Shown: positions 2,927-37,732, numbered from the stretch's first letter. The stretch is DNA of 58,851 bases from Actinomycetota bacterium (GCA_051744245.1 JBNJCV010000002.1:1-58851); one strand, 5' to 3'. Notes: generated by a model not told the origin, from the letters alone. Program-made: numbers and translations.

Positions 2927-4687
2927 TTGGCTGGTAAAGCAAAACTGTTGACAGGAAATGAAGCAATAGCCAGGGGCGCATGGGAAGCTGGGGTTCAAGT
3001 TGCTACGGCTTATCCTGGAACTCCTTCCACTGAAATACTTGAAAATATTGCAAAATATAAGGAGATATATTCACAGTGGTCTGTAAATGAAAAGGTTGCT
3101 TTAGAAGTTGCTTCTGGTGCCAGCATTGAAGGAGGAAGGGTGCTGGTGGCCATGAAGCATGTGGGTTTAAATGTAGCTGCTGATCCCTTTATGACTTTAT
3201 CCTATACTGGGGTTGGAGGAGGGCTGGTAATAGTTTCTGCTGACGACCCTTATATGCATAGCTCGCAAAATGAGCAGGATAACCGCTATTATGCCAAAAT
3301 GGCAAGGGTATTAATGCTTGAACCTTCTGACAGCCAGGAGGCAAAAGATTTTACTATTGAAGCATTTGAACTTAGCGAACAATTTGATTGTCCTGTGCTG
3401 CTTAGGGTTACTACTAGGATTTCACATTCAAGATCTGTAGTAGGGCTGGGACCAAGGAAAGAATCAAGCAAAAAAGATTATTTAAAAGACTGCAAAAAGT
3501 TTGTTATGGTTCCTGCATTCGGGAGGCTAAGGCATCAAGAGGTTTTAAACAGATGGGATAGACTAGTTTCCTTTTCTGAGGACTCCGATCTGGGTAGGAT
3601 ATATGACTCAGGGGAAAATAAGGATGTGGGAATAATAACTTCCAGCATAAGCTTCCAGTATACAAAAGAAGTATTCGGTGATATTGATATATTGAAGCTA
3701 GGCTTGTCACACCCGCTTCCGGAAAAGAAAATCAGAAAGTTTCTAAAAAACAGAAAGAAAGCTATTGTAATTGAAGAGCTAGAGCCTTTTATAGAGGAAC
3801 AGCTAAAGGAAATGGATTTGGGTGTAGTTATTTACGGAAAAGAATATTTTCCCCAATTTGGCGAATTGAATTTAGGTATTCTAAGGAAAGCCCGGACAAA
3901 GATTTTTGGAAAAGAAAAGCCTAAAAAAGGAGAAAATAAGTCTAAAAACATACCAAACAGGCCGCCTGTTCTTTGTGCTGGCTGTCCACACCGTCCGGTT
4001 TTTTATGTACTTAAAAAACTAAAAGTAAGGGTTATGGGAGATATTGGCTGCTATACTCTTTCTGTGCTGCCGCCACTTAATTCCCTGGATACTTGCCTGT
4101 GCATGGGTGCAGGAGTAGGCCAGACCCTGGGAATGGAGAAAGCCAATCCAGACCTTAGAGGTAAACTGGTTTCAGTTATTGGTGATTCTACTTTCTTCCA
4201 TTCCGGCATCACTCCCCTGGTTGATAATATCTACAACGGGGGGACTAACTTAATGATAATACTTGATAACAGGATAACTGCCATGACCGGGCACCAGGCA
4301 AATCCCGGAATGGGGTTGTCCCTGATGGGGAAGAAAGTCCCTGTTATATGGCCGGAAAAAATTGCTGAGTCGGTGGGGGTAAAAAATGTAAAAGTGATAG
4401 ACCCCTATAATATCCAGGAATTTGAAGAAGCAGTTAAAGAGGAGCTGGCAAGGCAGGATTTTTCAGTTATAGTGGCCAGGCGGAAATGTGTGCTTTTAGA
4501 GAAGGAAGAAGGAGATTTTACTGTATATATAGAGGAAGAAGATTGCAAGGCCTGCGGGGTTTGCTTGAAGTTTGGCTGCCCTGCAATAGAATACAGGGAA
4601 GGAAAGTACTCTATTAACGGGCTTTTATGCACAGGATGCGGAGTTTGCTTGAATATATGCAAGTTTGGGGCAATAAAGGAAAAATAA
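2927..4687 (+). CDS. iorA: indolepyruvate:ferredoxin oxidoreductase alpha subunit
   Basis: 586 aa. N-terminus LLTGNEAIARGAWEAGV..AYPGTPSTEI. TPP-domain motif GDSTFFHSG. Two C-terminal ferredoxin motifs: CKACGVCLKFGCP and CTGCGVCLNIC. TTG start. Confidence 0.9.
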   Translation: MAGKAKLLTGNEAIARGAWEAGVQVATAYPGTPSTEILENIAKYKEIYSQWSVNEKVALEVASGASIEGGRVLVAMKHVGLNVAADPFMTLSYTGVGGGLVIVSADDPYMHSSQNEQDNRYYAKMARVLMLEPSDSQEAKDFTIEAFELSEQFDCPVLLRVTTRISHSRSVVGLGPRKESSKKDYLKDCKKFVMVPAFGRLRHQEVLNRWDRLVSFSEDSDLGRIYDSGENKDVGIITSSISFQYTKEVFGDIDILKLGLSHPLPEKKIRKFLKNRKKAIVIEELEPFIEEQLKEMDLGVVIYGKEYFPQFGELNLGILRKARTKIFGKEKPKKGENKSKNIPNRPPVLCAGCPHRPVFYVLKKLKVRVMGDIGCYTLSVLPPLNSLDTCLCMGAGVGQTLGMEKANPDLRGKLVSVIGDSTFFHSGITPLVDNIYNGGTNLMIILDNRITAMTGHQANPGMGLSLMGKKVPVIWPEKIAESVGVKNVKVIDPYNIQEFEEAVKEELARQDFSVIVARRKCVLLEKEEGDFTVYIEEEDCKACGVCLKFGCPAIEYREGKYSINGLLCTGCGVCLNICKFGAIKEK

Positions 4688-4771
4688 GTTAAGGAAAACT
4701 TTTTTAAAATGGTTACCGGCAATAATTCTAAAAGTTTTTATGCCAAGTGGAAAAAACAGATAGAAAAAGGC

Positions 4772-5341
4772 ATGACCATGTCCATATTGTTTACTGGAGT
4801 TGGGGGACAGGGGATAATAAAGGCCACTACTGTTTTAGCTGAAGCTGCTATGAGTGGCGGCTTAGATGTAAAGGTTTCAGAAGTTCACGGAATGGCCCAA
4901 AGGGGAGGAAGCGTGGTCGGAAGCGTTAGGATAGGTAAAAGAGTATATTCTCCCACAATAGATAAAGCTGACATTGTCTTTTCTTTGGAAAAGCTTGAAG
5001 CCTTGAGGTATCTCAGCATGTTAAATACCGGAGGATTTCTGTTGATAAATAATTGCGAGATTGTCCCTGTGTCCTTATTTTTTAACCAGGAAGAATATCC
5101 CAAGGATATCATTTCCAGGATTTCTAAATTTACAAAAAACTACCTGATAGTAGAAGCCAATAGCATATCAAAAAAGCTTGGGGAACCCAGGGCATCCAAT
5201 ATAGTCCTTTTGGGTAAGCTGTCAAATTTTGTTCCCGTAAAGGAAGAATTTTTTATCCAGTCAATTAAAAAGAATATACCGCCAAAAGCAGTTGATATAA
5301 ATATTAGAGCCTTCAAGGAAGGCAGAAGAAATAAAAATTAA
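4772..5341 (+). CDS. iorB: indolepyruvate:ferredoxin oxidoreductase beta subunit
   Basis: MTMSILFTGVGGQGIIKATTVLAEAA...HGMAQRGGSV is a typical IorB/gamma-type domain. I prefer the ATG at 4772 (GAAAAAGG RBS 3 nt upstream) over the track start at 4709. Confidence 0.85.
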   Translation: MTMSILFTGVGGQGIIKATTVLAEAAMSGGLDVKVSEVHGMAQRGGSVVGSVRIGKRVYSPTIDKADIVFSLEKLEALRYLSMLNTGGFLLINNCEIVPVSLFFNQEEYPKDIISRISKFTKNYLIVEANSISKKLGEPRASNIVLLGKLSNFVPVKEEFFIQSIKKNIPPKAVDINIRAFKEGRRNKN

Positions 5342-5356
5342 AATAGGAGGGGTCCT

Positions 5357-5755
5357 ATGCCTGTAAAGCAAATAACTGTTTTTTTAGAAAACCAGACTGG
5401 AAGGTTGGCAGAAGTAACCAGGATATTAAAAAAAGAAGATATTAACCTGCAGGGTTTTTCTACTACTGAGGCAAGGGATTACGGCATTTTGCGCCTGGTG
5501 GTATCAGATACAGAAAGAGCCCGGGGAGCGCTAAAAGATGCCGGGTTTACTACCCATGTTGCGGATGTAATTTGCGTGAAGGTTGAAGACAAGCCCGGGG
5601 AGCTTTACAAGATACTGGAAATACTGGCAAAAGATAATATCAATGTTGATTATATTTATGTTATTGCAGGGACTAGAATCGTGTTAAGTGTTGGCGACTT
5701 GGCCAAAACCGAACAGGTCCTGACACGCAGTGGCGTTGAACTTTGCAAACAATAA
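5357..5755 (+). CDS. tandem ACT-domain protein (small-molecule binding, regulatory)
   Basis: 132 aa with two beta-alpha-beta-beta-alpha-beta repeats (ITVFLENQTGRLAEVT..., ICVKVEDKPGELYKILE...). RBS AGGAGG lies upstream. Confidence 0.8.
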   Translation: MPVKQITVFLENQTGRLAEVTRILKKEDINLQGFSTTEARDYGILRLVVSDTERARGALKDAGFTTHVADVICVKVEDKPGELYKILEILAKDNINVDYIYVIAGTRIVLSVGDLAKTEQVLTRSGVELCKQ

Positions 5756-5781
5756 GTTTAATAAAATAGAAGGGAGGATTG

Positions 5782-5886
5782 ATGTTAGGACTTGGCGGAG
5801 GGATATTTCTGGCATACCTGTTATGCATACTCAGCACGGCAGCCTGTGTTATATACGGGGCTATAATGTGGAACAAAAATGAGTAA
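5782..5886 (+). CDS. 34-aa single-TM 'symporter small accessory protein'
   Basis: Below the ORF-track length cutoff. GGGAGG RBS, then ATG at 5782: MLGLGGGIFLAYLLCILSTAACVIYGAIMWNKNE*. One TM helix ending in WNK. It sits immediately upstream of the SSS symporter, as in the known small-accessory-protein family. Confidence 0.6.
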   Translation: MLGLGGGIFLAYLLCILSTAACVIYGAIMWNKNE

Positions 5887-5919
5887 GTTTATTTTATAAT
5901 TTTTTTGAAAGGAGGATAC

Positions 5920-7524
5920 GTGAACACGGTCTTATTTAGTTTAATAGTAGTCATATATCTTTTAGTTATTGGCTTTCTTGGTTACCTGGGGTACAGGGGA
6001 ACTAAGACTGATAGGGACTTCCTGTTGGCAGGAAGCAATATACATCCCTACATTATGGCCATATCATATGGGGCCACTTTTATATCCACTTCTGCAATTG
6101 TAGGGTTTGGGGGAGCTGCCGGCGTATTTGGTATGGGTCTCCTTTGGCTTACTTTTCTAAATATTGCTCTGGGTATTGGGATTGCCTTTATATTTTTCGG
6201 CAAGAGGACCAGACAGGTAGGGCTTGAGCTTGATGCCCATACTTTTCCTGAATTCTTGGGCAAAAGGTATAATTCAAGGTTCATACAAGTACTTGGTGGA
6301 ATAGTCATTTTTGTATTTATGCCTATTTATACCGGAGTGGTTTTAATAGGAGCAGCAAGGTTTATTGAGAGTACCTTAAATATTAATTTTATCATATCGC
6401 TGTTCATATTTTCCGTAATAATTGCTGTCTATGTAATAGCGGGGGGCTTAAAGGGAGTAATGTATACTGATGCCTTACAGGGAAGTATTATGTTTCTAGG
6501 AATGGTTGCCTTGCTGATACTTACCTATGTCAGCCTGGGCGGTTTTGTAGATGCCCATCAATCCCTAACTGATCTTTTTGACAAAGTTCCGGAAGGTCTG
6601 GTGGCAGGTGGCCACCAAGGATGGACTAATATGCCAACCCTTGGGTCGCCATTGTGGTGGACATTGGTATCCACCATAATTATGGGGGTAGGTATTGGCG
6701 TGCTTGCACAGCCCCAGTTGGTGGTTAGATTCATGACGGTAAGAAGCAGTAAAGAGCTAAACCGTGCTGTACTTATCGGGGGAATATTTATCTTGTTTAT
6801 GACCGGGGTTGCTTTTGTAGTAGGCGCATTGTCTAATGCTTACTTCTTTAAGGAAACAGGCCAAATTTCTCTTGAAGCTGCTGGCGGTAATTCTGATTCA
6901 ATAATTCCAACCTATATAAATCTGGCAATGCCACCCTGGTTTGTATATGTTTTCATGCTTACCCTGCTAGCTGCAGCCATGTCTACTATAAGTTCTCAGT
7001 TCCATACTCTTGGTTCGGCTTTCTCCAGGGATATGTTAGGAATAAAGAGCAAGGAAACTCAGAATGATATAGATGAGGAAGAGATGGAACCGTCAAAAGG
7101 GCTGCTTGTTACCAAACTTGGAATAATTATAGGGATTATTGTTAGTGTGATATTGGGCTACTACCTTCCAACCAGCATTATTGCCAGGGGAACAGCCCTT
7201 TTCTTTGGAGTAGCGGCAGCTACATTCTTACCAATGTATATTTGCGGATTATACTGGCGGAGGACTACCAAAGCGGGCGCAATAAGTGGAATGGTGGTAG
7301 GTGTTGTAATCAGCGTTTTCTGGATGCTGTTTATCCATAGCGCAAATTCTGCTATGATAGGACTTTGCAATTTAATGTTTGGGAAAGAGAGTTTGGTTGG
7401 ATTTCCATGGAACTCTGTAGATCCAATACTTATAGCATTTCCCGCTTCTTTTATAGTTACAGTATTGGTCAGCTTGTTTACCAAGCCATTGCCAGAAGAA
7501 TTACTTGATAAAGTATTTAAATAA
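5920..7524 (+). CDS. sodium:solute symporter (SSS family)
   Basis: About 13 TM segments. SSS-like [14 protein letters not shown] motif. The GTG at 5920 follows AGGAGGA at ideal spacing. The track start (TTG 5905) lies inside the RBS. Confidence 0.85.
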
Positions 7525-7547
7525 TTAAAGGAAAGGAGGTCATCAAA

Positions 7548-8861
7548 ATGGCAGAAAGCTACTGGGAAAAAGAGTATGAAACCATGCCTAGGGGAAAGCT
7601 TTTAGAGCTTCAGCTTGAAAGGCTTAAAAAAACCCTAATTAATGTTTATGAGAATGTAAAATTTTATAGGGAAAGACTGGATGAGAGCGGGGTAGACCCA
7701 TATAATTTTAATAGTTTGGACGGGTTGGAAAAAATTCCCTTTACCAACAAGGATGACCTCCGCCTGAATTATCCTTTTAAGCTATTTGCGAAAACAATAT
7801 CCGAGATTGTAAGGGTACATTCATCTTCAGGGACTACTGGTAATCCCACCGTAGTCGGCTATACAAAAAATGATATATCCTTATGGGGGAATTTAATTGC
7901 CAGGGACCTTTTTTCGGTAGGAGTTGGTGAAAATGACATTATACAGAATAGCTATGGCTATGGGCTTTTTACCGGTGGGCTTGGCTTGCACTACGGCGCT
8001 GAACTTCTGGGTGCAACTGTAATTCCTGCTTCTGGTGGAAATACTGAGAGGCAGCTAAAGATTATGCAGGATTACGGGTCAACTGTAATTTGCTGTACCC
8101 CTTCATATGCCCTGTATATAGCGGAAGTGGGAAAAGAGCTTGGCTTTGATTTTTCCAAACTACCCTTGAAATTAGGGGTATTGGGTGCAGAGCCCTGGAC
8201 AGAAGAGATGAGAAAGGAAATTGAGTCCAGGTTATATATTGATGCTATAGACATATACGGACTAAGCGAAATAATAGGGCCGGGAGTTTCCTGCGAATGT
8301 ATTGAAAAGAATGGTCTGCATGTAGCTGAGGACCATTTTATTATAGAAATTGTTGACCCTAAAACAGGCAAGGCCCTTCCTCCTGGCAAAAGAGGGGAAA
8401 TGGTGTTTACCTCTATAACCAAGGAAGGGATACCGGTTATAAGGTACAGGACCAGGGACCTGTCAATACTTAATACCGGGAAGTGCAGATGCGGTAGGAC
8501 CCATGCCAGAATGGCAAAGCCAATGGGCAGGACTGATGACATGCTTATAATCCGGGGAGTAAATGTATTCCCTTCCCAGATAGAGGAAGTGCTAATGAAG
8601 GTAAAGGATGTAGAGCCCCATTACCTTATAGTTGTGGACAGGAAGAATTATCTTGATTCCATGGAGCTGTGGGTGGAAGTTTCAGAAGATGTATTTTCTG
8701 AAAAGATGAATGACCTGGAGAATTTTGAATCTTCCATTGAACATAAGCTGTATTCAGCAATTGGGATACATATAGATGTCAAGCTAAAAGAGCCCAAAAC
8801 CATACAGAGGAGCACTGGTAAGGCCAAGAGAGTTTTGGATAGGAGGAAAGGAGAGAAATAG
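7548..8861 (+). CDS. paaK: phenylacetate-CoA ligase family (aryl-acetate:CoA ligase), paralog 1
   Basis: 437 aa with [23 protein letters not shown] and [21 protein letters not shown], the PaaK hallmarks. Confidence 0.9.
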
Positions 8862-8867
8862 AAAATC

Positions 8868-10181
8868 ATGCCTGGAAAAAATTTTTGGGATGAAAAAATT
8901 GCAAAAAGCAGCAGGGAAGAGATCCAGAAACTGCAGTTGAAAAGGCTAAAAGATACTTTAGGCCATATTTACAAGGGCAATGATTTTTATAGGAAAAGGA
9001 TAGACGAAGCAGGCATTAACCCGGTAGCTGTTGACAGCTTGAAGGGTATAGAGAAGCTTCCTTTTACTTCTAAAGAGGACTTGAGGAAGAATTATCCCTT
9101 CGGCCTTTTTTGCAGTCCGGAGGATGAAATTGTAAGAGTGCATTCATCATCGGGAACTACCGGCAACCCCACTGTTGTTGGGTATACCAGGGATGATTTA
9201 GAAATATGGGCTGATGTTTTAGCCAGGATTATGTATGATGCGGGAGTAAGGAAAAATGATGTAGTCCAGATAAGCCATGGGTTTGGCTTGTTTACAGGTG
9301 GTTTTGGCTTCCAGTATGCCTCCGAGAGAATAGGTGCATTGGTTATTCCAATTTCCGGAGGAAATACTGAAAGACAGCTAAAGGTTATGAAAGATTTTGG
9401 CTCTACAGTGCTTTGTGCAACTCCTTCCTATGCTTTGTATATGTCTGAAGTTGCTTCCAAAGTTGGGGTAGACTTTAAATCCCTTAATTTAAAAGTGGGT
9501 TTTTTTGGGGCTGAGCCATGGACGGAAGCAATGAGGAGGGAGATTGAAAAGAGGCTCAACATAAAGGCGCTGGATAGCTATGGCTTAAGCGAGGTAATAG
9601 GTCCAGGAGTTTCCTGCGAATGTTTAGAGCAGAAAGGTTTGCACATAAATGAGGACCATTTTCTGGTAGAAATTATAGATCCCAGGACAGGTAAAGTACT
9701 GCCGGCTGGCCAGAAAGGGGAACTGGTGTTTACTTCCCTTACCAAAAAGGCTTTTCCGGTTATAAGGTACAGGACCAAGGATATATCATATCTGATAGAA
9801 GAAGAGTGCAGCTGCGGGAAGAAGCTGAGGAGGATGGCAAAGCCAATGGGCAGGACTGATGACATGCTTATAATCCGGGGAGTAAATGTATTCCCTTCCC
9901 AGATAGAGGAAGTGCTTATGTCTATTGATGATTTGGAGCCCCATTACCTGATAGTGCTGGATAAAAAAGATTATATGGATACAATTGAGGTATGGGTTGA
10001 AGTTTCTGAGAATATATTCCATGAAAAAATTATGGATCTGGAATTTTTTGAAAAGTCAATAGAGGACAAGCTTTATTCAACCATAGGCATTAGAATAGAT
10101 GTAAGCTTAAAAGAGCCCCAGACAATTGCCAGGAGCAAAGGTAAGGCAAAAAGGGTTTTAGACAAAAGGAAAAAAGATTAA
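8868..10181 (+). CDS. paaK: phenylacetate-CoA ligase family, paralog 2
   Basis: 437 aa, collinear with paralog 1 and carrying the same motifs. 6-nt gap after paralog 1. Confidence 0.9.
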   Translation: MPGKNFWDEKIAKSSREEIQKLQLKRLKDTLGHIYKGNDFYRKRIDEAGINPVAVDSLKGIEKLPFTSKEDLRKNYPFGLFCSPEDEIVRVHSSSGTTGNPTVVGYTRDDLEIWADVLARIMYDAGVRKNDVVQISHGFGLFTGGFGFQYASERIGALVIPISGGNTERQLKVMKDFGSTVLCATPSYALYMSEVASKVGVDFKSLNLKVGFFGAEPWTEAMRREIEKRLNIKALDSYGLSEVIGPGVSCECLEQKGLHINEDHFLVEIIDPRTGKVLPAGQKGELVFTSLTKKAFPVIRYRTKDISYLIEEECSCGKKLRRMAKPMGRTDDMLIIRGVNVFPSQIEEVLMSIDDLEPHYLIVLDKKDYMDTIEVWVEVSENIFHEKIMDLEFFEKSIEDKLYSTIGIRIDVSLKEPQTIARSKGKAKRVLDKRKKD

Positions 10182-10269
10182 CAGTAAAATTAAAAAAGAA
10201 ATATCCAGCCTCCTAAAAAAAGAATTAAAATTCATTTCGAAATTTTTCCCCTATAACTTAAACAGCAAT

Positions 10270-10977
10270 TTGGATCCAAACTTAATTTATGCCCAGGCCT
10301 TATTTGCACCTATCGGTGAATCTGCTGGTTACCGTTACCTTAAAAAAATTTCTGACCTTGCTATTGGCATAGAACTTTTAGGAGTAGGCAGCAATTTCCA
10401 CAGTTTTAACATAAATAATTTTACCCGGAAACAAGTTGATAAGAATAAGGACAAATATACCTTACACCTGCTATTTGGGGATGTTTTTTATTCGAGGGCA
10501 GTTAGCCATTTACTAAAGTTCAATGACAGCCTGGTTTTTACAGAAATATTGAATTCTTTAAAATCTGTGCACCATTCAAGGCTGCTTTTGCATAGAGAGA
10601 TGCTCAAGCTTATTGAAAACAAGGATTACTTGGCCGAAATAATGGATAAGAAAATCGGCTTACTGCTAGGTATAAATTCGCTTTTTAAAAACACCATTAT
10701 ATTAGGTTGGAGCTTAGTGCCCAAAAATTTAAAAGATGCCAGTGAGATAAATGAAATATATAAGTTGGCTAATGCCATCACTCATGCCAAGTCTTTTATA
10801 GAGCTGGAAAGATTTTTAAGGGAATTTGCCCATCATTTTAACCTGGAACTGGACATGGAGGCTCTGGCAGAAAAAAAGGCTTTTATAGAAGGCCAGTTAG
10901 ATGTTATCATATCAAAACTGAAGCAAAATTGGCTAAAAGAGAATTTTCAGGGCATAACTGGCGTTTTATTGAGGTAA
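10270..10977 (+). CDS. HepS-like / catalytically dead prenyl-synthase-like protein (putative non-catalytic subunit)
   Basis: 235 aa from the TTG start. LHLLFGDVFYSRAVSHLL resembles the L(A)GD(F/Y) helix of prenyl synthases and of HepS as I recall it. The expected Asp-rich position reads GSNFHSFNINN, with no Asp. The frame stays open upstream to 10162 and encodes helix-like SKIKKEISSLLKKELKFISKFF, so the true start is uncertain. Confidence 0.5.
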   Translation: MDPNLIYAQALFAPIGESAGYRYLKKISDLAIGIELLGVGSNFHSFNINNFTRKQVDKNKDKYTLHLLFGDVFYSRAVSHLLKFNDSLVFTEILNSLKSVHHSRLLLHREMLKLIENKDYLAEIMDKKIGLLLGINSLFKNTIILGWSLVPKNLKDASEINEIYKLANAITHAKSFIELERFLREFAHHFNLELDMEALAEKKAFIEGQLDVIISKLKQNWLKENFQGITGVLLR

Positions 10978-10981
10978 TTTA

Positions 10982-12688
10982 ATGAAGGCTGACTTAATTT
11001 TAATCCATCCCCCCAGTATTTATGATTTCAGGGAAAAAACTATCATGTTTGGGCCGGTAAGCGACTTGGTTCCCAGCACCCCAATTTTTGAGATGTATCC
11101 GATTGGCTTTTTGACTATGTCTAATTATCTTCAGAAAAGGGGCTTTAAGGTTAGGATAGTGAACCTGGCCCACAGGATGCAGGTAGATAAAAATTTTGAT
11201 GCCGGAAAGTTTCTAAAATTATTAAAAGCAGATGCTTTTGGAATAGATTTCCACTGGATGGCTCATTGCCAGGGGTCAACAGAGGTAGCAAAAATAATAA
11301 AGGAATATCATCCAGAAACCCCGGTGATTTTTGGCGGTTTTTCCTCTTCCTATTTTTTTAGCCAACTCATTAAATACCCCCAGGTTGATTACATTATAAG
11401 GGGGGATTCAGCAGAAGAACCGCTAGCTAGGCTGATGGGAGCCATAAAGCATGGAAAATACAGGTTAGAAGATATCCCTAACTTAGTTTACAAAAAGCAA
11501 GGCAGGGTTTATACAAACCCGGTGAGGTGCATTTCAAAGGATCTGGAGGAAATTGATTTTGATTACAGGATTATGTTCAAGCAGGTAACAAGGTTTTTCG
11601 ACATTGGCAGCCTCATGCCATTCAGCCAATGGTTTAGGTATCCTATAACTACTATACCTGTAGTTAGGGGCTGCAGCCATAATTGTTCGGGATGCGGAGG
11701 CTCAAAAAGTGCTTTTAAAATATTTGCAAAAAGAAAAGAGCCTGCTTTTAGGTCTCCAAAGAAGCTGGCTGAAGAAGTTAAGCTAATAAAAAAATATATA
11801 AATGCCCCTGTATTTATACTTGGAGATATAAATGAAGGGGGAAAGGAATATGTAGAGGAATTTTTCGGTTACGCCCGGGGAATAAAAGAAGGTACTCAGA
11901 TATTTTTTGAGTTTTTCAAACCGCCTCCAAAATGGTTTTTTGATGAAGCTAGCAGGCTTTTTAGCAGTGTTTTATATGAAATGTCTCCCGACTCCCATGA
12001 CACAGAGATTAGACAGAAGATGGGAAAACCTTCTTTTTCTAACAATGACTTGATAGAGGCGATTGAATATGCGCTGGGCAAAGGGGCAGTCAGGTTTGAC
12101 CTTTATTTTATGTCAGGACTGCCCGGCCAGAATAAGAGGTCCATTATGGATACAGTGGATTTTTGCGAAAGAATTTACAGAAAGATTGGTTGGGATAGAA
12201 GGTTTATGCCTTTTATTTCGCCCATGGCCCCGTTCCTAGACCCTGGCAGCAGGGCTTTTGAGAATCCATCTAAGTTTGGCTATAAGCTGACAGCTGAAAG
12301 CCTGGAGGAACATATTAAAGCTATAGTTAAGCCATCCTGGAAATATATATTAAATTATGAAAGCAGTGCTATTAGCAGGGATGATTTAGTAGAATATACT
12401 TACAAAGCTGCTGCAGGTTTAAACAGGTTAAAGGGTAGGTCCGGTGCTATAACTGAGGAGATTATGGCTGAAAATGAAAAAAGGATTTACAATGCCTTAA
12501 AGACCATTGACAAAATAGATAAAATAATGGGAAAAGGAGGGGACAGAAAGCAGGAGATGCTAACAGAATTAAAGCAAGAAACGGAAAAATACAGCATGTC
12601 TACAATATGTGAAAAAAAAGAGCTGGAGTTTCCCTTGTTTAACCGCAGGTTTAATTGGCCGAGAATAATAAAGGAATCTATCTTTTAA
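10982..12688 (+). CDS. B12-binding-domain radical SAM protein (class-B-like), function unknown
   Basis: 568 aa. The N-terminus has a Rossmann-like B12-binding-type layout (LILIHPP..., PIGFL..L...GF.V.IVNL, PVIFGGFSSSYF, VDYIIRGDSAEEPL). Radical SAM cluster motif VVRGCSHNCSGCGG (CX3CX2C). Confidence 0.85.
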   Translation: MKADLILIHPPSIYDFREKTIMFGPVSDLVPSTPIFEMYPIGFLTMSNYLQKRGFKVRIVNLAHRMQVDKNFDAGKFLKLLKADAFGIDFHWMAHCQGSTEVAKIIKEYHPETPVIFGGFSSSYFFSQLIKYPQVDYIIRGDSAEEPLARLMGAIKHGKYRLEDIPNLVYKKQGRVYTNPVRCISKDLEEIDFDYRIMFKQVTRFFDIGSLMPFSQWFRYPITTIPVVRGCSHNCSGCGGSKSAFKIFAKRKEPAFRSPKKLAEEVKLIKKYINAPVFILGDINEGGKEYVEEFFGYARGIKEGTQIFFEFFKPPPKWFFDEASRLFSSVLYEMSPDSHDTEIRQKMGKPSFSNNDLIEAIEYALGKGAVRFDLYFMSGLPGQNKRSIMDTVDFCERIYRKIGWDRRFMPFISPMAPFLDPGSRAFENPSKFGYKLTAESLEEHIKAIVKPSWKYILNYESSAISRDDLVEYTYKAAAGLNRLKGRSGAITEEIMAENEKRIYNALKTIDKIDKIMGKGGDRKQEMLTELKQETEKYSMSTICEKKELEFPLFNRRFNWPRIIKESIF

Positions 12689-12692
12689 AATT

Positions 12693-13658
12693 ATGCTAAA
12701 TGAATTTAAGGTATTTGGATTTTTAAGAAAAGATATGAGCAGGTTGGAAGGGTACCTGGAAAAATTTACAGATAGCCTTGACGGTATATTAAAAGAAGGA
12801 GTAGAAAATACCCTTCTTGCAGGGGGAAAAAGAATACGGTCAGCTTTGTTTTTTATCTGTGCCAGGAATACCGGCTATGATATTGCTTATCTGCTTCCTG
12901 CGGCTGCGTCAATTGAAATCATACATACAGCTTCCCTAATACATGACGATATAATTGACAAGTCCGAACTTAGAAGGGGAAAGAAAACAATACATAGCCT
13001 TTATGACAATGATACAGCCAAGTATATTGGCAATTACCTTTTTACACATACTTTTTCGCTTTTAAATACTTACCGGAATCCTGAAATATTAAGGGAGATG
13101 TCTAGTGCAGCTGAATACTTGGTAAGAGGTGAATTTGATCAGCTAAAGAAGCATAAAACCCTTGATCAGGATGAAAATTTTTATTTTTCCATGATTAGTA
13201 AAAAAACATCCTCCCTATTTAAGGGAAGTTGTGCTTTGGGAGGACTTCTTTCCGGAGCAGGTAGAAAAGAAACTAAAAAGTTGAGCGAGTTTGGCCGCCT
13301 TTTGGGTATTGCTTTCCAGATAAATGATGACTTGCTTGATGTTGATAAAAGCATGTCTAGGAATATTGGCAAGCCGGTGGGAAATGACATAAGACAGGGT
13401 AATATAACTCTTCCCATTATTTATGCCCTGAAGGATAAGAAAGCCAAAAAGCATTTAGAAAAAGTGTTAGGAGAAGATGATCTTTCCAATGATGATATAA
13501 GGGAGGCGCTGGAGTTGATAAACAGTACCGATGCTGTAGATGTAGCAAAAGCTAAACTTACTGCTTATTCGGGTAGGGCAAGAAAAATGGCAAGTGCTAT
13601 AGGAGAAGGGGAAAGAAGGAAAAACTTGCTCAAGGTATGTGATTATTTTAAAACATGA
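12693..13658 (+). CDS. long-chain trans-polyprenyl diphosphate synthase (HepT/IspB-like)
   Basis: 321 aa with GGKRIRS, first Asp-rich motif TASLIHDDIIDKSELRRG (small residues precede it, which indicates long-chain type) and second motif FQINDDLLD. Confidence 0.9.
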   Translation: MLNEFKVFGFLRKDMSRLEGYLEKFTDSLDGILKEGVENTLLAGGKRIRSALFFICARNTGYDIAYLLPAAASIEIIHTASLIHDDIIDKSELRRGKKTIHSLYDNDTAKYIGNYLFTHTFSLLNTYRNPEILREMSSAAEYLVRGEFDQLKKHKTLDQDENFYFSMISKKTSSLFKGSCALGGLLSGAGRKETKKLSEFGRLLGIAFQINDDLLDVDKSMSRNIGKPVGNDIRQGNITLPIIYALKDKKAKKHLEKVLGEDDLSNDDIREALELINSTDAVDVAKAKLTAYSGRARKMASAIGEGERRKNLLKVCDYFKT

Positions 13659-14605
13659 AAGATTTTTATAGCTTAGCATCAGAAGTTCTATCCATAACTG
13701 TTCCCATATTTGTGGTGGTAGCAATTGGTTATTTCATAAGGAGAAAGGGGATAGTAACAGAGAAGTCTGTGCATGGCTTAAACAAAATAGCATATAATAT
13801 TGCCTTGCCTGCCTTAATATTTATTACCATTACTAGGCATAGCCTGGCTGAAATATTTAATCCTAGCATAATCAAGGTAATTTATTCTACTTATGCTATC
13901 TATATTTTCCTGGTTTTTTTATTTGTAAATTTTACTAAATCATCCAACAAGTTCAAAAGTGCCTTTATTGTCTCTTCTTTCAGGTGCAATATGGCATTTA
14001 TTGGCTTTCCCATTGTACTTTCAGCTTATGGTGAACTGGCCCTAGCCAAGGCAAGTCTGGTAGTGGCGTTTCTGGTGCCGGTAAATATTATTGCCAGCAT
14101 ATTGATATTCAGGCTCTACAGTAAAGGAGAGGGCAAAATAATGCTCAGGAAGATGCTTTTAGGGCTTCTGGTGGACCCGCTAATACTTTCCGCTATTCTG
14201 GGAATAATAATATCTTACCTTAATTTTGATTTCCCTCAGCCTGTATTTAAGGTATTGGATATCCTTTCAGGAATGGCAATTGGAATTGCCCTTATAGCTA
14301 TTGGGGCATCATTTAGGTTTTTTCACCTGAAGGCTAATATAAAGGCATTGTCTATTATAAGCTTTTTAAAGCTAGTACTGCTTCCCCTTATTGCTCTGGG
14401 TATTTCTACTTTTGTTTTTAAGCTCGATATTATTGACAGGAATTTAATAGTTATTCTTTTCTCTATGCCGCTTGCCGTGGTTGCCTTTATAATGGGCAAG
14501 GAATATGAGTCAGACTTTAATTTTATTTCCTCCACCCTGATAACCACTACTATATTTTCATCAATTACCATATCTGGTTGGCTGCTTATACTAAAAATAA
14601 TTTGA
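13655..14605 (+). CDS. AEC (auxin efflux carrier) family transporter
   Basis: 316 aa, about 10 TM segments with a central hydrophilic loop. ATGA start/stop overlap with the prenyl synthase gene. Confidence 0.8.
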   Translation: MKDFYSLASEVLSITVPIFVVVAIGYFIRRKGIVTEKSVHGLNKIAYNIALPALIFITITRHSLAEIFNPSIIKVIYSTYAIYIFLVFLFVNFTKSSNKFKSAFIVSSFRCNMAFIGFPIVLSAYGELALAKASLVVAFLVPVNIIASILIFRLYSKGEGKIMLRKMLLGLLVDPLILSAILGIIISYLNFDFPQPVFKVLDILSGMAIGIALIAIGASFRFFHLKANIKALSIISFLKLVLLPLIALGISTFVFKLDIIDRNLIVILFSMPLAVVAFIMGKEYESDFNFISSTLITTTIFSSITISGWLLILKII

Positions 14606-24367: not shown

Positions 24368-26440
24368 TTGAAATTAATTATAAGTGAAAAAGAAATAGCA
24401 GCTAAAAGAATAGCCAAGATACTCTCAGGCAATGGCCTAAAGGAGAAAAAAGTATATGGGGTGCCCACCTATACCTTCAACCATGAAGGCACTGATTACC
24501 AGGTTATAGGGCTAAAGGGCCATATCCTAAAAGTTGATTATCCTAAAAAATATGCCAACTGGTTCAAAATTGACCCTGTTGATTTGATAGATGCAGAAAT
24601 TGAAAAATTTCCTATCCAGAAGAAAATAATAAGGGCATTAAAGAAGATTTCCGAGGAAGCAGATGAAATAATAATTGCTACCGACTATGACCGGGAAGGC
24701 GAGCTTATAGGCTATGATGCCTTGAATGTAGTAAAGGAAGTAAATAAAATAGTTTCTTCCAGGAGGGCAAAATTTTCCTCTATTACTGCCAGGGATTTAA
24801 ATAAGTCTTTTTCCAAGCTGGAAAAGCTTGACACTAACCTTGCTTTTGCTGGGAGGGCAAGACAGGACATAGACTTGGTGTGGGGGGCTACCCTTACCCG
24901 GTTTATTTCTCTTGCGGCATTCCAAATTAAAGATAAATACCTGTCAGTGGGGAGGGTGCAAACTCCTACCCTGGCCCTGATTGTAGAAAGGGAGGAAGAG
25001 ATAAAGAATTTTGTTCCCATCCCTTACTGGGTCATAAAGGTTATGCTGAAAACCGGCAAGGGTGAAGAATTTGAGGCCAGGCATAAAAGGAAAAAGTTTA
25101 CTAAAAGGGAGCAGGCTGAAAAAGTCTATAATGATATAGGAAAAAATGGCAAAGTAATTGAGGTAAAGGAAAGAAACCGGAAAGTAAAGCCTCCTCCTCC
25201 TTTTAACACTACCGGGCTGATAGTTGCAGCAAACGCGTTTGGGTTTACTGCCAGCAGGACTATAAACATTGCAGAAAGTCTTTACATGAACGGCTATATA
25301 AGCTATCCGAGGACAGACAATACAGTCTATCCTTCTTCGCTGGATATTCCCAATGTTTTAAAAGAGTTGGGCAAGTCGCAATACTTTAAGAATATGTGCA
25401 GTCACGTGCTTTCCCAAAAAAAGATAAAAGCCTCAAGGGGTAAAAAAAGATCAACCGACCATCCCCCAATTTATCCTACCTCGCCGGCGGGGGAAAGCGA
25501 GCTATCTAAAGATGAATGGAAGATTTATGAATTGGTGGTAAGGAGGTTTATTGCCACTCTGCTTCCTGCAGCAATCCTTAAAAGTATTTCTACTAAAATA
25601 GATATAGGGGGGCATACTTTTGTGGCTACCGGATCCCATATGGTTGAAAAAAACTGGACCCAGTTTTATCCGTATTATAAGCATAAAGACTTGTATATAC
25701 CTCACCTGCAAGAGCAGGATATCCTTGATGTTATTGGCAAAAAAATTCTGGATAAGGAAACCAAGCCCCCGCCCAGATACACCCAGGGCAAGCTGGTTGA
25801 AAAAATGGAGGAGCTGGGATTGGGTACTAAGGCAACCCGGCACTCTATAATACAGAATTTAATAAGCAGGGGGTATTTGAAAGGCAATCCCATTGAACCT
25901 TACCAGAAGGCAATTTCTGTAATTAAGATGCTAAAGAAGCATGCCCAGAAAATATCTTCCCCGGATATGACCTCGGAACTGGAGATGGATATGGACGGAA
26001 TTGCAGCCGGGGATGAGACCAGGGAAGAAGTAGTAGAAAAATCCAGGGAGATGCTAAAGGATGTAATGATTAACCTGAAGAAGGAAAAAGATGAAATTGC
26101 CAGGGAAATAAAAAATGGCATAAAAGAGGATTTAAAAGTTGGAAAGTGTACTGCGGAAGGTTGTGATGGGGAATTGGTAATCAGGAAATCCAGGAAGACC
26201 AAGAAAAGGTTTATAGGGTGCAATGCTTATCCCAAATGCAGGAACACTTTTTCCCTTCCTCAGAGGGGGCTTATAATTACTACCGAGGATAAGTGCAAGC
26301 ATTGCGGTTATCCTAAAATTAAAGTAATTAACAAGGGAAGAAGGCCATGGAATCTTTGTATAAATCCTGAATGTCCTGGAAAAGATGAAAAATATAGAAA
26401 TTACAAAAATAAAAGAAAAAATAAAGCAGCTCATAGTTAA
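24368..26440 (+). CDS. topA: type IA DNA topoisomerase with C-terminal zinc ribbons
   Basis: Toprim motifs KLIISEKEIAAKRIA and IIATDYDREGELIG. Active-site motif ISYPRTDN. Two C-terminal Cys4-type ribbons (CTAEGCDG...CNAYPKC; CKHCGY...CINPEC). The TTG at 24368 follows GGAGTGG. The track start at 24305 would add an implausible hydrophobic extension. Confidence 0.85.
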   Translation: MKLIISEKEIAAKRIAKILSGNGLKEKKVYGVPTYTFNHEGTDYQVIGLKGHILKVDYPKKYANWFKIDPVDLIDAEIEKFPIQKKIIRALKKISEEADEIIIATDYDREGELIGYDALNVVKEVNKIVSSRRAKFSSITARDLNKSFSKLEKLDTNLAFAGRARQDIDLVWGATLTRFISLAAFQIKDKYLSVGRVQTPTLALIVEREEEIKNFVPIPYWVIKVMLKTGKGEEFEARHKRKKFTKREQAEKVYNDIGKNGKVIEVKERNRKVKPPPPFNTTGLIVAANAFGFTASRTINIAESLYMNGYISYPRTDNTVYPSSLDIPNVLKELGKSQYFKNMCSHVLSQKKIKASRGKKRSTDHPPIYPTSPAGESELSKDEWKIYELVVRRFIATLLPAAILKSISTKIDIGGHTFVATGSHMVEKNWTQFYPYYKHKDLYIPHLQEQDILDVIGKKILDKETKPPPRYTQGKLVEKMEELGLGTKATRHSIIQNLISRGYLKGNPIEPYQKAISVIKMLKKHAQKISSPDMTSELEMDMDGIAAGDETREEVVEKSREMLKDVMINLKKEKDEIAREIKNGIKEDLKVGKCTAEGCDGELVIRKSRKTKKRFIGCNAYPKCRNTFSLPQRGLIITTEDKCKHCGYPKIKVINKGRRPWNLCINPECPGKDEKYRNYKNKRKNKAAHS

Positions 26441-27239
26441 AGCAAGCTTTAATCTCCCGGAAGACATAAGAGAGGCATTAGAGGAAGCTTATAATACTGA
26501 GCCCAATACCACTGCCAGGAAGATCCTTTATTATATTCTGGAAAATGAAAAAATATCCAGAAAAGAAAGCTTGCCTCTTTGCCAGGATTGCGGCTCTGTA
26601 TATATAAATATATTGGTTGGAAAAAACATCTGCATCCAGGGGGATAATTTAAACCGGATGGCAAATGAAGCAATTGCCGAAGTTTACAGTGAATATTACC
26701 TCAGAAAATCCATAGTAGACGACCCTCTTTATTTGAGGGAAAACACGGGGAATAATAATCCGGCTATACTGGATATAGGCTATTTTGATGGTGATGGCAT
26801 TGATATAGAAGTTTGTCTGAAGGGTGGGGGCAGTGAAAATTGCTCTTATCTTTTTATGCTTAATCCCTCAACTACAGAGGCAGAAATTGTAGAGGTAATT
26901 TGCAGGATGGTTAAAGAAAATGTTAGCAAGTGCTGCCCTCCTGTTATTATGGGAATTGGATTGGGCTCAACTGCTTCAGGGGTTGTAAAACTGGCAAGGA
27001 AAGCTAGTTTTAGGAATGTGAGGGAAAGAAATAAAAACAGGGATTACAAAAAGCTTGAGAAAAAGATTTTAGATAGGGTAAACCAGCTGGACATTGGTCC
27101 TCAGGGATTGGGGGGCAAGACTACTGCCCTGGCCTGCAATATTGAGTATGCACCTTGTCATATGGCTACGCTGCCCATGGCCTTATTTCTGGGTTGTCAT
27201 TCTTTGAGGCGTGCATGTTCAAAGATATCGCCGCCATAA
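26385..27239 (+). CDS. class I (Fe-S) fumarate hydratase / tartrate dehydratase, alpha (N-terminal-domain) subunit
   Basis: 284 aa with PLCQDCG, KGGGSENCS and PPVIMGIGLGST motifs. The only plausible start (ATG 26385) overlaps the topoisomerase 3' end by 56 nt. Confidence 0.8.
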   Translation: MKNIEITKIKEKIKQLIVKASFNLPEDIREALEEAYNTEPNTTARKILYYILENEKISRKESLPLCQDCGSVYINILVGKNICIQGDNLNRMANEAIAEVYSEYYLRKSIVDDPLYLRENTGNNNPAILDIGYFDGDGIDIEVCLKGGGSENCSYLFMLNPSTTEAEIVEVICRMVKENVSKCCPPVIMGIGLGSTASGVVKLARKASFRNVRERNKNRDYKKLEKKILDRVNQLDIGPQGLGGKTTALACNIEYAPCHMATLPMALFLGCHSLRRACSKISPP

Positions 27240-37656: not shown

Positions 37657-37732
37657 GCCGATGTAGCTCAATTGGCAGAGCGGCTCATTCGTAATGAGCA
37701 GGCTACCGGTTCAAGTCCGGTCATCGGCTCCA
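37657..37732 (+). tRNA. tRNA-Thr (anticodon CGU)
   Basis: Cloverleaf read by eye. Acceptor GCCGATG/CATCGGC. D arm GCTC-AATTGGCA-GAGC. Anticodon arm GCTCA-TTCGTAA-TGAGC (anticodon CGT). Variable loop AGGCT. T arm ACCGG-TTCAAGT-CCGGT. Discriminator T plus encoded CCA. Confidence 0.9.

What the first reader, a model, noticed from the sequence alone, without database searches (positions are those of the whole stretch)
10162..14605. hepS-like / B12-radical-SAM / hepT-like / AEC-transporter cassette: a radical SAM enzyme in the slot where Bacillus carries menH
Four + strand genes are packed for translational coupling: gaps of 4 and 4 nt, then an ATGA overlap at 13655-13658. The gene at 12693-13658 is an intact long-chain trans-prenyl diphosphate synthase, with both Asp-rich motifs and small residues before the first one. 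The gene at 10270-10977 looks like a non-catalytic partner. It keeps an LLFGDVFYSRAV helix, but the expected first Asp-rich site reads GSNFHSFNINN. From memory it also shares short motifs with HepS, component I of heptaprenyl-PP synthase, for example FAHHFNL. Between these two genes sits a 568-aa protein with a B12-binding-type N-domain and a CX3CX2C radical SAM site. In B. subtilis, hepS and hepT flank menH, a UbiE-type methyltransferase. Here a class-B-like rSAM enzyme occupies the same position, and a membrane exporter is appended. Class-B rSAM enzymes methylate or rearrange unactivated carbons. Hypothesis: this cassette makes and exports, or inserts into the membrane, a modified long-chain isoprenoid or quinone side chain (C-methylated, cyclised or coupled). 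I cannot name a characterised system with this architecture.
Basis: partly seen in the sequence, partly recalled or inferred. Interest (0 to 1): 0.75.

Follow-up and report, generated by a model that had tools for sequence, protein, structure and literature searches.

The report
Menaquinone-linked B12 radical SAM cassette
An uncultured anaerobic actinobacterium carries a tightly packed operon in which an uncharacterised vitamin-B12-dependent radical enzyme sits between the two subunits of a long-chain prenyl synthase, and relatives in several other phyla keep the same enzyme next to menaquinone (vitamin K2) genes, which suggests an undescribed step in making or modifying the respiratory quinone of anaerobes.

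Summary
The four genes, their 4-nt gaps and the ATGA overlap are real.

- **rSAM (568 aa):** it is a full member of NCBIfam TIGR04190 (615 bits, cutoff 500). This family is catalogued, but I found no assigned function.
- **Context:** in 31 of 80 related loci, a TIGR04190 gene lies beside menaquinone late-step genes, in four different layouts:
  - partner–rSAM–IPPS–AEC (this clade);
  - short IPPS-like–rSAM–MenG–HepT-like IPPS–amidohydrolase;
  - rSAM–MenG–amidohydrolase;
  - MenA–IPPS–small rSAM–rSAM.
- **menH slot:** the rSAM is therefore an addition to a hepS/menG/hepT-type operon. It does not replace menH.
- **235-aa protein:** it is not a HepS-family member (no Pfam hit). It is a decayed prenyl-synthase-fold protein without Asp-rich motifs.
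- **321-aa enzyme:** its closest solved relative is B. subtilis HepT.

Best reading: a two-subunit quinone side-chain synthase plus a cobalamin-dependent rSAM that acts on menaquinone or its prenyl tail. C-methylation is the most likely chemistry but is unproven. The AEC transporter's role is unresolved. No other men/mqn gene lies in the window. Interest is moderate to high: it is a testable lead on an uncharacterised, widespread enzyme family.

The parts
10177..10977 (+). 'p235': non-catalytic, degenerate trans-prenyl-synthase-fold protein, the putative partner subunit. It is annotated from TTG 10270. The probable real start is the non-canonical ATT at 10177 (AAGGA at 10166-10170), which overlaps the PaaK stop as ATTAA.
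   Evidence: **Family and homology**
- No Pfam or NCBIfam family.
- The family is closed: 53 clusters among 1.84e9 representatives.
- hhalign to real IPPS gives E=2.3e-4, in register with the first Asp-rich motif (FARM) and the next helix. hhalign to the short IPPS-like ORFs of sister clades gives E=1.6e-4.
- tblastn of the L016 short IPPS hits 10333-10836 at E=6e-4.

**Structure**
- AF2 pLDDT 72. All 50 top Foldseek PDB hits are trans-IPPS, with TM up to 0.64.
- No DDxxD motif in the sequence.

**Start codon**.
10982..12688 (+). TIGR04190-family cobalamin-binding radical SAM enzyme (568 aa).
- B12-binding domain: nt 11087-11413.
- Radical SAM core: nt 11654-12166.
- CX3CX2C: nt 11672-11695.
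- Invariant C543: nt 12608-12610.
   Evidence: **Family membership**
- TIGR04190 at 615 bits against a cutoff of 500. PF02310 and PF04055 both hit.
- The next-best families are far below their cutoffs: BchE 61 of 481, HpnR 57 of 650.
- 88 residues are >=97% conserved in 80 members.

**Structure**
- AF2 pLDDT 82.
- Nearest solved structures are TsrM, MgmA, TokK, CysS, OxsB and AprD4.
- No PDB relative by sequence.
12693..13658 (+). Catalytic long-chain trans-prenyl diphosphate synthase (HepT-like). First Asp-rich motif (FARM) DDIID at nt 12945-12959. Second Asp-rich motif (SARM) DDLLD at nt 13326-13340.
   Evidence: - PF00348 at 226 bits.
- Best NCBIfam is HepT TIGR02748 at 258 bits, below its equivalog cutoff of 456.
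- Best solved relative is B. subtilis heptaprenyl-PP synthase component 2, 9kp1_B, E=4e-56.
- A80/S81 lie at positions -5/-4 of the first Asp-rich motif (sequence).
13655..14605 (+). AEC-family (Mem_trans) membrane transporter, translationally coupled to the synthase by an ATGA overlap. Substrate unknown.
   Evidence: - PF03547 at 128 bits. TIGR00946 at 103 bits, below its cutoff of 246.
- The 4-nt IPPS/AEC overlap recurs in L001-L004, L006, L007 and L081.
- The gene is present only in the Humimicrobiia-like clade.
2927..10181 (+). Upstream same-strand genes, probably co-transcribed: IorA, IorB, an ACT protein, a sodium:solute symporter and two PaaK-type aryl-CoA ligases. This is context, not part of the prenyl/rSAM module.
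   Evidence: - NCBIfam identifications.
- Gaps between genes are 6-23 nt, apart from ~150 nt between the ACT gene and the symporter, where L081 has a small 34-aa gene call.
- No terminator between PaaK2 and p235 above chance.
- Same order in L001-L004, L008, L044 and L081.

Best explanation
The cassette is the side-chain branch of menaquinone (or a closely related prenylquinone) biogenesis in a Ca. Humimicrobiia actinobacterium.

**How it works**
- The 321-aa HepT-like enzyme makes a long (about C30-C40) all-trans prenyl diphosphate. It probably acts as a heteromer with the upstream protein, which has a prenyl-synthase fold but no Asp-rich motifs. This would be analogous to HepS/HepT or HexA/HexB.
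- The TIGR04190 enzyme between them is a cobalamin-dependent radical SAM enzyme. It acts on the quinone or its prenyl tail.
- Its [4Fe-4S] cluster (C231/C235/C238) cleaves SAM. The cobalamin domain most probably delivers a methyl group, giving a C-methylated, lower-potential quinone for anaerobic electron transport.
- The AEC transporter is a lineage-specific add-on of unknown substrate.

**Shown:** gene content, family membership, folds, and conserved linkage to MenG, MenA and IPPS in several phyla.

**Inferred:** heteromer formation, quinone as the substrate, and methylation as the chemistry.
For: **Family identity**
- The window rSAM scores 615 bits on TIGR04190. Members from every context class score 617-683 bits against a cutoff of 500.

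**Gene neighbourhood, 31 of 80 loci in four non-homologous layouts**
- (a) partner-rSAM-IPPS-AEC: 11 loci.
- (b) short IPPS-like-rSAM-(MenG)-IPPS-amidohydrolase: 5 loci.
- (c) rSAM-MenG-amidohydrolase: 11 loci.
- (d) MenA-IPPS-small rSAM-rSAM: 4 loci in Planctomycetota, Lentisphaerales and Aerophobetes.
- Sources. MenG scores 262 bits on TIGR01934 (cutoff 158). MenA scores 134 bits on TIGR00751 (cutoff 102).

**Other respiratory neighbours**
- NuoA lies divergently adjacent in 3 loci.
- Ccm cytochrome c maturation genes and multihaem cytochromes also occur nearby.

**Phylogeny**
- Linked members span all Actinomycetota subclades and the PVC/Aerophobetes subclade of the family tree.

**Synthase and partner**
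- The IPPS is closest to HepT.
- The partner is IPPS-like by profile, by tblastn and by fold.
- Partners in the same slot in sister clades are clearly IPPS-derived: 99.4% hhalign probability, and best PDB match HepT at E=3e-19.

**Chemistry**
- The four nearest solved enzyme families (TsrM, MgmA, TokK, CysS) are all Cbl-dependent methyltransferases.

**Chance expectation (inference)**
- Chance adjacency to three single-copy genes within about 12 kb is roughly 1%.
Against: - 49 of 80 loci (Anaerolineae, Thermodesulfobacteriota and others) have only housekeeping neighbours.
- The window's 58.8 kb holds no MenA, MenG, Mqn, UbiA or UbiD gene. I could not check whether this organism makes menaquinone at all.
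- Conservation inside the Humimicrobiia-like clade is ordinary synteny, from PaaK to the lytic transglycosylase. It is not independent evidence.
- Class B rSAM enzymes also cyclise, desaturate, oxidise and form C-S bonds. Methylation is therefore only the prior expectation.
- Ring methylation of menaquinone is already explained elsewhere by class C enzymes.
- The p235-to-IPPS profile match is weak (E about 2e-4, probability 45-50%), and the p235 model is of moderate confidence.
Confidence: 0.55

Rival explanations
1. The rSAM modifies a non-quinone isoprenoid: the free polyprenyl (di)phosphate or a derived membrane lipid. The chemistry could be methylation, cyclisation or desaturation, as HpnR, Grs, Gmm and Ted do on hopanoids and archaeal tetraethers. 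The AEC protein would handle a related small molecule.
For: - In the window's clade the only partners are a prenyl synthase pair and a transporter. No quinone head-group gene is nearby.
- B12-rSAM enzymes acting on inert isoprenoid carbons are well documented.
- HpnR is among the next-best NCBIfam hits.
Against: - In other clades the neighbours are the head-group enzymes MenG and MenA, not only IPPS.
- HpnR scores 57 bits against a cutoff of 650.
- In bacteria, long-chain trans-IPPS products are, to my knowledge, used mainly for quinone side chains (established knowledge).
Confidence: 0.15
2. The rSAM is a core, non-canonical biosynthetic step of menaquinone in anaerobes, rather than a tailoring step. 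For example, it could replace a late futalosine-pathway step, or the C2 methylation in lineages whose operon lacks MenG.
For: - It co-occurs with an amidohydrolase of the TRZ/ATZ type, the group that includes aminofutalosine deaminase (187 bits on NF006269, below its cutoff).
- The window's cassette lacks MenG while sister clades have it.
- A second unknown small rSAM accompanies it next to MenA in PVC and Aerophobetes loci.
Against: - Most menaquinone producers lack this family. The canonical pathways are complete without it (established knowledge).
- It coexists with MenG in 13 loci, so it is not a general MenG substitute.
Confidence: 0.12
3. The linkage is not functional for quinones. TIGR04190 acts on another cofactor of anaerobic respiration, for example a tetrapyrrole or haem in the manner of BchE. 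It merely travels with respiratory-chain biogenesis genes.
For: - BchE is the second-best NCBIfam hit (61 bits).
- Ccm haem-lyase genes, multihaem cytochromes and a NirJ/AhbC-like small rSAM occur in some neighbourhoods.
- Most loci have no quinone gene nearby.
Against: - MenG, IPPS and MenA are far more frequent, and more immediately adjacent, than any haem gene.
- BchE similarity covers only the shared N-terminal B12/rSAM core and is far below its cutoff of 481.
Confidence: 0.1

Closest known systems
Bacillus subtilis hepS-menH(ubiE)-hepT (gerC) operon; heteromeric heptaprenyl diphosphate synthase HepS/HepT (PDB 9kp1)
   Same: - A two-gene long-chain prenyl synthase brackets a quinone-tailoring enzyme.
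- The catalytic subunit here is most similar to HepT.
- A sister clade has partner-rSAM-MenG-IPPS, which is the Bacillus order with one extra gene.
   Different: - The partner is not in the HepS family: PF07307 gives no hit for p235 and only E=3e-4 for the sister-clade partners.
- The sister-clade partners look like truncated HepT paralogues.
- An rSAM gene is inserted.
- MenG is absent from the window's version, and an AEC transporter is appended.
MqnK / MenK / MenK2 menaquinone C-methyltransferases (class C, HemN-like radical SAM)
   Same: They are radical SAM enzymes that tailor menaquinone in anaerobes. This is the functional model for what TIGR04190 may do.
   Different: - They belong to a different rSAM class: no cobalamin domain and a HemN-like fold.
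- HemN appears only as a weak generic rSAM-core match in the fold search (rank 44).
- No activity is known for TIGR04190.
Cobalamin-dependent rSAM enzymes acting on isoprenoid lipids: HpnR/HpnP (hopanoid methylases), GrsA/B (GDGT ring synthases), Gmm and GDGT methylases, Ted (tetraether desaturase)
   Same: - Same domain architecture: an N-terminal Rossmann B12 domain plus a partial TIM-barrel rSAM core.
- They act on unactivated carbons of membrane isoprenoids.
   Different: - TIGR04190 is a separate family (HpnR 57 bits against 650).
- Its C-terminal ~280 residues and its invariant N-terminal loop are specific to the family.
- Its neighbours are quinone genes, not hopanoid or tetraether genes.
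Heteromeric prenyl synthases with a catalytically dead paralogous subunit (M. luteus HexA/HexB 3aqb; plant GPPS small subunit 3kra; rice GGPPS-recruiting protein 5xn6)
   Same: An IPPS-fold partner without Asp-rich motifs is encoded beside, or works with, an active IPPS. Entries from all three heteromeric systems appear among the fold hits of p235.
   Different: The p235 family is a closed, lineage-restricted family of 53 clusters with no detectable HMM link to these proteins. Complex formation is untested.

Membership tests
NCBIfam TIGR04190 (B12_SAM_Ta0216) | Full-length HMM score at or above the curated cutoff of 500 bits | tested here: met
   615.2 bits, aa 4-535 of 568. Members from the other context classes score 617-683 bits.
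Class B (cobalamin-dependent) radical SAM enzymes | N-terminal B12-binding Rossmann domain plus a radical SAM core with CX3CX2C | tested here: met
   - PF02310 at 42.6 bits (GA 32.1). PF04055 at 51.3 bits (GA 29.5).
- C231/C235/C238 are invariant.
- The fold matches TsrM, TokK, CysS, MgmA and OxsB.
Class B radical SAM methyltransferases | Methyl transfer from methylcobalamin to the substrate | not testable with these tools
   Only structural neighbours suggest it. Non-methylating class B enzymes exist.
HepS, heptaprenyl-PP synthase component I (Pfam PF07307 HEPPP_synt_1) | Match to the HEPPP_synt_1 profile | tested here: not met
   - p235 has no hit at E<=1.
- The p235 family profile finds no HepS or IPPS chain in the PDB at E<=10.
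- Sister-clade partners reach only E=3e-4, or 20.7 bits against GA 30.
Non-catalytic partner subunit of a heteromeric trans-prenyl synthase (functional class) | IPPS fold without Asp-rich motifs, encoded next to an active IPPS | tested here: met
   - All 50 top Foldseek hits are trans-IPPS.
- hhalign to IPPS gives E=2.3e-4, in register with the first Asp-rich motif.
- No DDxxD in the sequence.
- The gene lies upstream of rSAM-IPPS in 9 loci.
Non-catalytic partner subunit of a heteromeric trans-prenyl synthase (functional class) | Physical complex with the catalytic subunit, and dependence of activity on it | not testable with these tools
   No multimer prediction or assay was available.
HepT, heptaprenyl-PP synthase component II (TIGR02748 equivalog) | HMM score at or above the cutoff of 456.55 bits | tested here: not met
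   258.4 bits. It is the best-scoring family but is below the cutoff. The best PDB relative is HepT 9kp1_B.
Long-chain trans-isoprenyl diphosphate synthases (PF00348) | Both DDxxD motifs, and small residues at -4/-5 of the first | tested here: met
   PF00348 at 225.8 bits. D85, D86, D89, D212, D213 and D216 are invariant in the alignment. A80/S81 are in the sequence.
MqnK/MenK/MenK2 menaquinone methyltransferases | Class C HemN-like radical SAM architecture | tested here: not met
   No HemN-like, MenK or MqnK family appears among the NCBIfam or Pfam hits. A B12 domain is present instead.
AEC / auxin efflux carrier family (PF03547) | Match to the Mem_trans profile | tested here: met
   127.6 bits against GA 25.7. 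The TIGR00946 subfamily scores 102.9, below its cutoff of 246.

The most novel reading that the evidence does not exclude
TIGR04190 catalyses a so-far undescribed cobalamin-dependent step on menaquinone. In some lineages it would act together with further B12-rSAM paralogues or a small PTO1314-like rSAM. The step could be a new ring or side-chain methylation, a cyclisation or an oxidation. It would be used by strict anaerobes across at least six bacterial phyla and Thermoplasmata, and would yield a new quinone species with altered redox potential and biomarker value. The Humimicrobiia cassette would then be a compact module of side-chain synthase, tailoring enzyme and transporter.
Probability: 0.35. 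Interest if true: 0.75.

Novelty: new variant of a known kind. Interest (0 to 1): 0.6.

Why it matters
Menaquinone is the main, and probably ancestral, respiratory quinone of anaerobes, and methylated derivatives tune its redox potential. The only known menaquinone-tailoring rSAM enzymes are class C.

A widespread class B family would add a new enzyme to quinone biochemistry if it is wired into menaquinone operons. This family has 591 or more species genomes in the scan and more than 4,000 proteins in metagenomes. It would also assign a function to a large 'domain-only' family. It could explain unassigned quinone variants in uncultured Actinomycetota, Coriobacteriia, PVC bacteria and Thermoplasmata.

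The hypothesis is directly testable by anaerobic heterologous expression and LC-MS.

Tried and rejected
**Rejected on evidence**
- *HepS membership of p235.* Rejected: no PF07307 hit, no PDB sequence hit, and the recalled motif FAHHFNL is not conserved.
- *'rSAM replaces menH'.* Rejected: rSAM and MenG are adjacent in 13 loci.
- *TIGR04190 as a GDGT ring synthase or archaeal-lipid enzyme.* I considered this because the founding member is from Thermoplasma. It is unlikely, because the family is mostly bacterial with quinone neighbours and no such NCBIfam hit. I could not compare directly with Grs sequences.

**Uninformative**
- Promoter and terminator scans were at shuffle level.
- Neighbours in Anaerolineae (MoxR, DUF58), Thermodesulfobacteriota (SelA, SelB, LysR; GidB, ParB, GyrB) and Acidobacteriota (SecDF) are housekeeping genes.
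- P0169, a 1190-aa protein with 12 matches to the p235 profile, is a repetitive artefact.
- An exact-sequence lookup of the window rSAM found nothing on record.

**Literature**
- TIGR04190 and Ta0216 each return 0 papers.
- A search on menaquinone, radical SAM, B12-binding and futalosine found nothing that links a B12-rSAM to menaquinone. The one suggestive hit is speculation about the unrelated Slr0320.
- Later searches failed with tool time-outs. Literature coverage is therefore incomplete.

Full report
**Observation**

The region holds four + strand ORFs: 10270-10977 (235 aa, TTG), 10982-12688 (568 aa), 12693-13658 (321 aa) and 13655-14605 (316 aa). The junctions are exactly as described: TAA-TTTA-ATG, TAA-AATT-ATG and an ATGA overlap. 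Profile searches give the following.

| Protein | Result |
|---|---|
| 568 aa | PF02310 B12-binding + PF04055 Radical_SAM |
| 321 aa | PF00348 polyprenyl_synt, 226 bits; best NCBIfam HepT, 258 bits, below the equivalog cutoff of 456 |
| 316 aa | PF03547 Mem_trans, 128 bits |
| 235 aa | no family at all, and in particular no HEPPP_synt_1 and no polyprenyl_synt |

**Organism**

The 235-aa sequence is on record as a hypothetical protein of a 'Candidatus Humimicrobiaceae bacterium' MAG. That places it in Actinomycetota, class Ca. Humimicrobiia. The remaining 58.8 kb encodes housekeeping and fermentative genes (IorAB, two PaaK, NadABC, TopA, fumarase, ArgS, SHMT, ThyX, Rho and others). It holds no men, mqn, UbiA or UbiD gene.

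**The radical SAM enzyme**

- It scores 615 bits on NCBIfam TIGR04190 'B12_SAM_Ta0216' (cutoff 500). Every other family is far below its cutoff: BchE 61 of 481, HpnR 57 of 650, PhpK 47 of 600.
- The family name carries no function. Searches for TIGR04190 and Ta0216 found no paper.
- The family is large. There are 4,494 proteins at E<=1e-10 among the candidates scored. At least 591 relatives occur in one-genome-per-species contigs.
- Across 80 members, 88 positions are >=97% conserved. These include C231/C235/C238, a fourth invariant Cys (C543) in a C-terminal T-x-C-x3-E motif, and a very conserved N-terminal loop at residues 9-43. AlphaFold cannot place that loop.
- The model (pLDDT 82) has the class B architecture. 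The nearest solved structures are TsrM, MgmA, TokK and CysS, which are all Cbl-dependent methyltransferases, followed by OxsB and AprD4.

**Synteny test**

I fetched 80 loci, mapped the window's proteins onto them, clustered all flanking ORFs and annotated the recurrent neighbours. Four different layouts link TIGR04190 to menaquinone late-step genes.

| Layout | Gene order | Loci | Lineage |
|---|---|---|---|
| a | p235-rSAM-IPPS-AEC | L001-L010, L044 (11) | relatives of the window |
| b | short IPPS-like-rSAM-(MenG)-HepT-like IPPS-amidohydrolase | L011-L013, L016, L048 (5) | Geothermocultor / Subteraquimicrobium-type Actinomycetota |
| c | rSAM-MenG-amidohydrolase | 11 loci | Coriobacteriia-type |
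| d | MenA-IPPS-small rSAM-rSAM | L039, L061, L067, L031 (4; L031 has no IPPS) | Planctomycetota, Lentisphaerales, Aerophobetes |

- MenG is above its cutoff (TIGR01934, 262 bits against 158). So is MenA (TIGR00751, 134 bits against 102).
- The amidohydrolase belongs to the TRZ/ATZ group that includes aminofutalosine deaminase. It scores 187 bits on NF006269, below that cutoff.
- In total 31 of 80 loci carry such a neighbour.
- Three further loci have NuoA divergently adjacent.
- L031 has cytochrome c maturation genes directly upstream.
- rSAM proteins from every context class are bona fide TIGR04190 members at 617-683 bits.
- On a neighbour-joining tree, the linked members cover all Actinomycetota subclades and the PVC/Aerophobetes subclade. 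Thermodesulfobacteriota and Anaerolineae members are unlinked and sit among housekeeping genes.
- Inside clade (a) the whole stretch from PaaK to the lytic transglycosylase is syntenic. Conservation there is not independent evidence. The independent evidence is that the quinone link persists through four rearranged layouts.

**Consequence for the 'menH slot' idea**

Layout (b) is the Bacillus order hepS-menH-hepT with the rSAM added between partner and MenG. Layout (c) keeps rSAM and MenG adjacent. The rSAM therefore accompanies the UbiE/MenG methyltransferase rather than substituting for it. The window's clade has simply lost MenG from the operon, or keeps it elsewhere.

**The 235-aa protein**

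- It is not a HepS-family member. The recalled motif FAHHFNL lies in a variable segment.
- It is nevertheless prenyl-synthase-like by several tests:
  - Profile-profile comparison aligns residues 20-154 to IPPS residues 60-191. The alignment is in register with the first Asp-rich motif and the following helix (E=2.3e-4, probability 45%).
  - It matches the short IPPS-like ORFs that occupy the same slot in clade (b) (E=1.6e-4).
  - One of those ORFs hits it directly by tblastn (E=6e-4).
  - Its AlphaFold model (pLDDT 72) retrieves only trans-prenyl synthases among the top 50 PDB matches, with TM up to 0.64. These include entries from the heteromeric HexPPS, HepPPS, GPPS and GGPPS systems.
- The clade (b) partners are unambiguously IPPS-derived (hhalign 99.4%). 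They are closest to HepT itself (E=3e-19).
- The partner therefore looks like a decayed paralogue of the catalytic subunit. This is directly supported for the clade (b) partners and only weakly, by profile and fold, for p235. Functionally it is analogous to HepS but is not a member of that family.
- The p235 family is closed and lineage-restricted: 53 clusters in 1.84 billion representatives.

**The catalytic subunit**

Its best solved relative is B. subtilis HepT in the HepS/HepT heterodimer (9kp1_B, E=4e-56). Both DDxxD motifs are present, with Ala/Ser at -5/-4 of the first. That fits a medium or long-chain product.

**Start codon**

- The p235 frame is open from 10162 and encodes KKELKFISKFFPYNL. 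This matches the conserved N-termini of homologs.
- No ATG, GTG or TTG occurs before 10270.
- In the closest relative (L081, rSAM 94% identical) the frame is intact, but the TTG is TTA. The first canonical start there would delete about 100 conserved residues.
- A non-canonical start is therefore likely. ATT at 10177 lies 6 nt after AAGGA and overlaps the PaaK stop as ATTAA.
- This would couple the cassette translationally to the upstream Ior/PaaK operon.

**Mechanistic reading**

- *Shown:* family memberships, folds, and conserved adjacency to MenG, MenA and IPPS.
- *Inferred:* p235 and the 321-aa enzyme form a heteromeric long-chain prenyl diphosphate synthase that supplies a quinone side chain. 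TIGR04190 acts on menaquinone, demethylmenaquinone or the prenyl tail. Methylation is the most probable chemistry, based on the structural neighbours and on what most characterised class B enzymes do.
- *Caveats:* known menaquinone ring methylases are class C enzymes. Class B enzymes that work on isoprenoids also cyclise and desaturate.
- *AEC transporter:* it is constant in clade (a), and its 4-nt overlap with IPPS is conserved. It is absent from all other clades. It may equally serve the upstream arylacetate-forming Ior/PaaK module.

**Limits**

- I could not test whether this genome has a menaquinone pathway.
- I could not model the p235-IPPS complex.
- I could not compare TIGR04190 with Grs, Gmm or Ted sequences.
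- I could not complete the literature survey, because the search tool failed from then on.

**Verdict**

I rate it a new variant of a known kind, namely rSAM tailoring of isoprenoid quinones or lipids. It is a good, directly testable lead.

Noticed in passing
window 10162-10269 (and L081 5181-5290): The p235 reading frame extends about 100 nt upstream of the annotated TTG and encodes a motif conserved in homologs. It contains no ATG, GTG or TTG. In the closest relative the TTG is TTA. A likely non-canonical start is ATT at 10177, after AAGGA, overlapping the PaaK stop (ATTAA).
   Followed up: yes
L011 455-3517; L012 458-3333; L013 3212-4588; L048 82-1473: Sister-clade operons carry one or two further B12-rSAM genes upstream of the partner-TIGR04190-MenG-IPPS block. 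One is BchE-like (400 bits, below the cutoff of 481). One is MJ_1487-like (72 bits). A conserved 127-aa ORF with no family also occurs there. This suggests several radical tailoring steps.
   Followed up: partly
L031 5058-5990; L061 3713-4687; L067 3337-4242; L039 ~3090-3965: A small radical SAM protein of about 310 aa is conserved between MenA/IPPS and TIGR04190 in Planctomycetota, Lentisphaerales and Aerophobetes. Its best match is the uncharacterised PTO1314 family (124-135 bits, below the cutoff of 306), with weaker NirJ, AhbC and HpnH similarity.
   Followed up: partly
window 2927-10181: IorA, IorB, an ACT protein, a sodium:solute symporter and two tandem PaaK-type ligases form a tight same-strand block that runs straight into the cassette. 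The terminal AEC ('auxin efflux carrier' family) transporter could plausibly export arylacetates such as indoleacetate made by this module.
   Followed up: partly
window 10982-12688, protein residues 9-43 and 541-547: Two parts of the TIGR04190 family are strikingly conserved yet modelled with low confidence. One is the N-terminal loop HPPS-YDFR...GP-SD-PS...F-MYP-G. The other is a C-terminal T-x-C-x3-E motif with an invariant fourth cysteine (C543).
   Followed up: partly
L032 320-691, L056 5491-5862, L076 5445-5927: NuoA (complex I subunit 3) lies divergently next to the TIGR04190 gene in two Chloroflexota MAGs and one Thermoplasmata MAG.
   Followed up: partly
window 47932-48183: A T-box leader (134 bits) lies upstream of the 450-aa ORF at 48243-49595. 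Its amino-acid specificity was not determined.
   Followed up: no
window 26385-27736: The alpha (26385-27239, +) and beta (27197-27736, -) subunits of a class I Fe-S fumarate hydratase are encoded on opposite strands. They converge and overlap by 43 nt. This is unusual for a two-subunit enzyme.
   Followed up: no
window 37657-37729: A tRNA gene overlaps the mechanically called start (37694) of the arginyl-tRNA synthetase ORF. The real ArgS start must lie further downstream.
   Followed up: no
P0169: A 1190-aa highly repetitive predicted protein matched the p235 profile in 12 stretches. It looks like a tandem-repeat translation artefact rather than a relative.
   Followed up: partly
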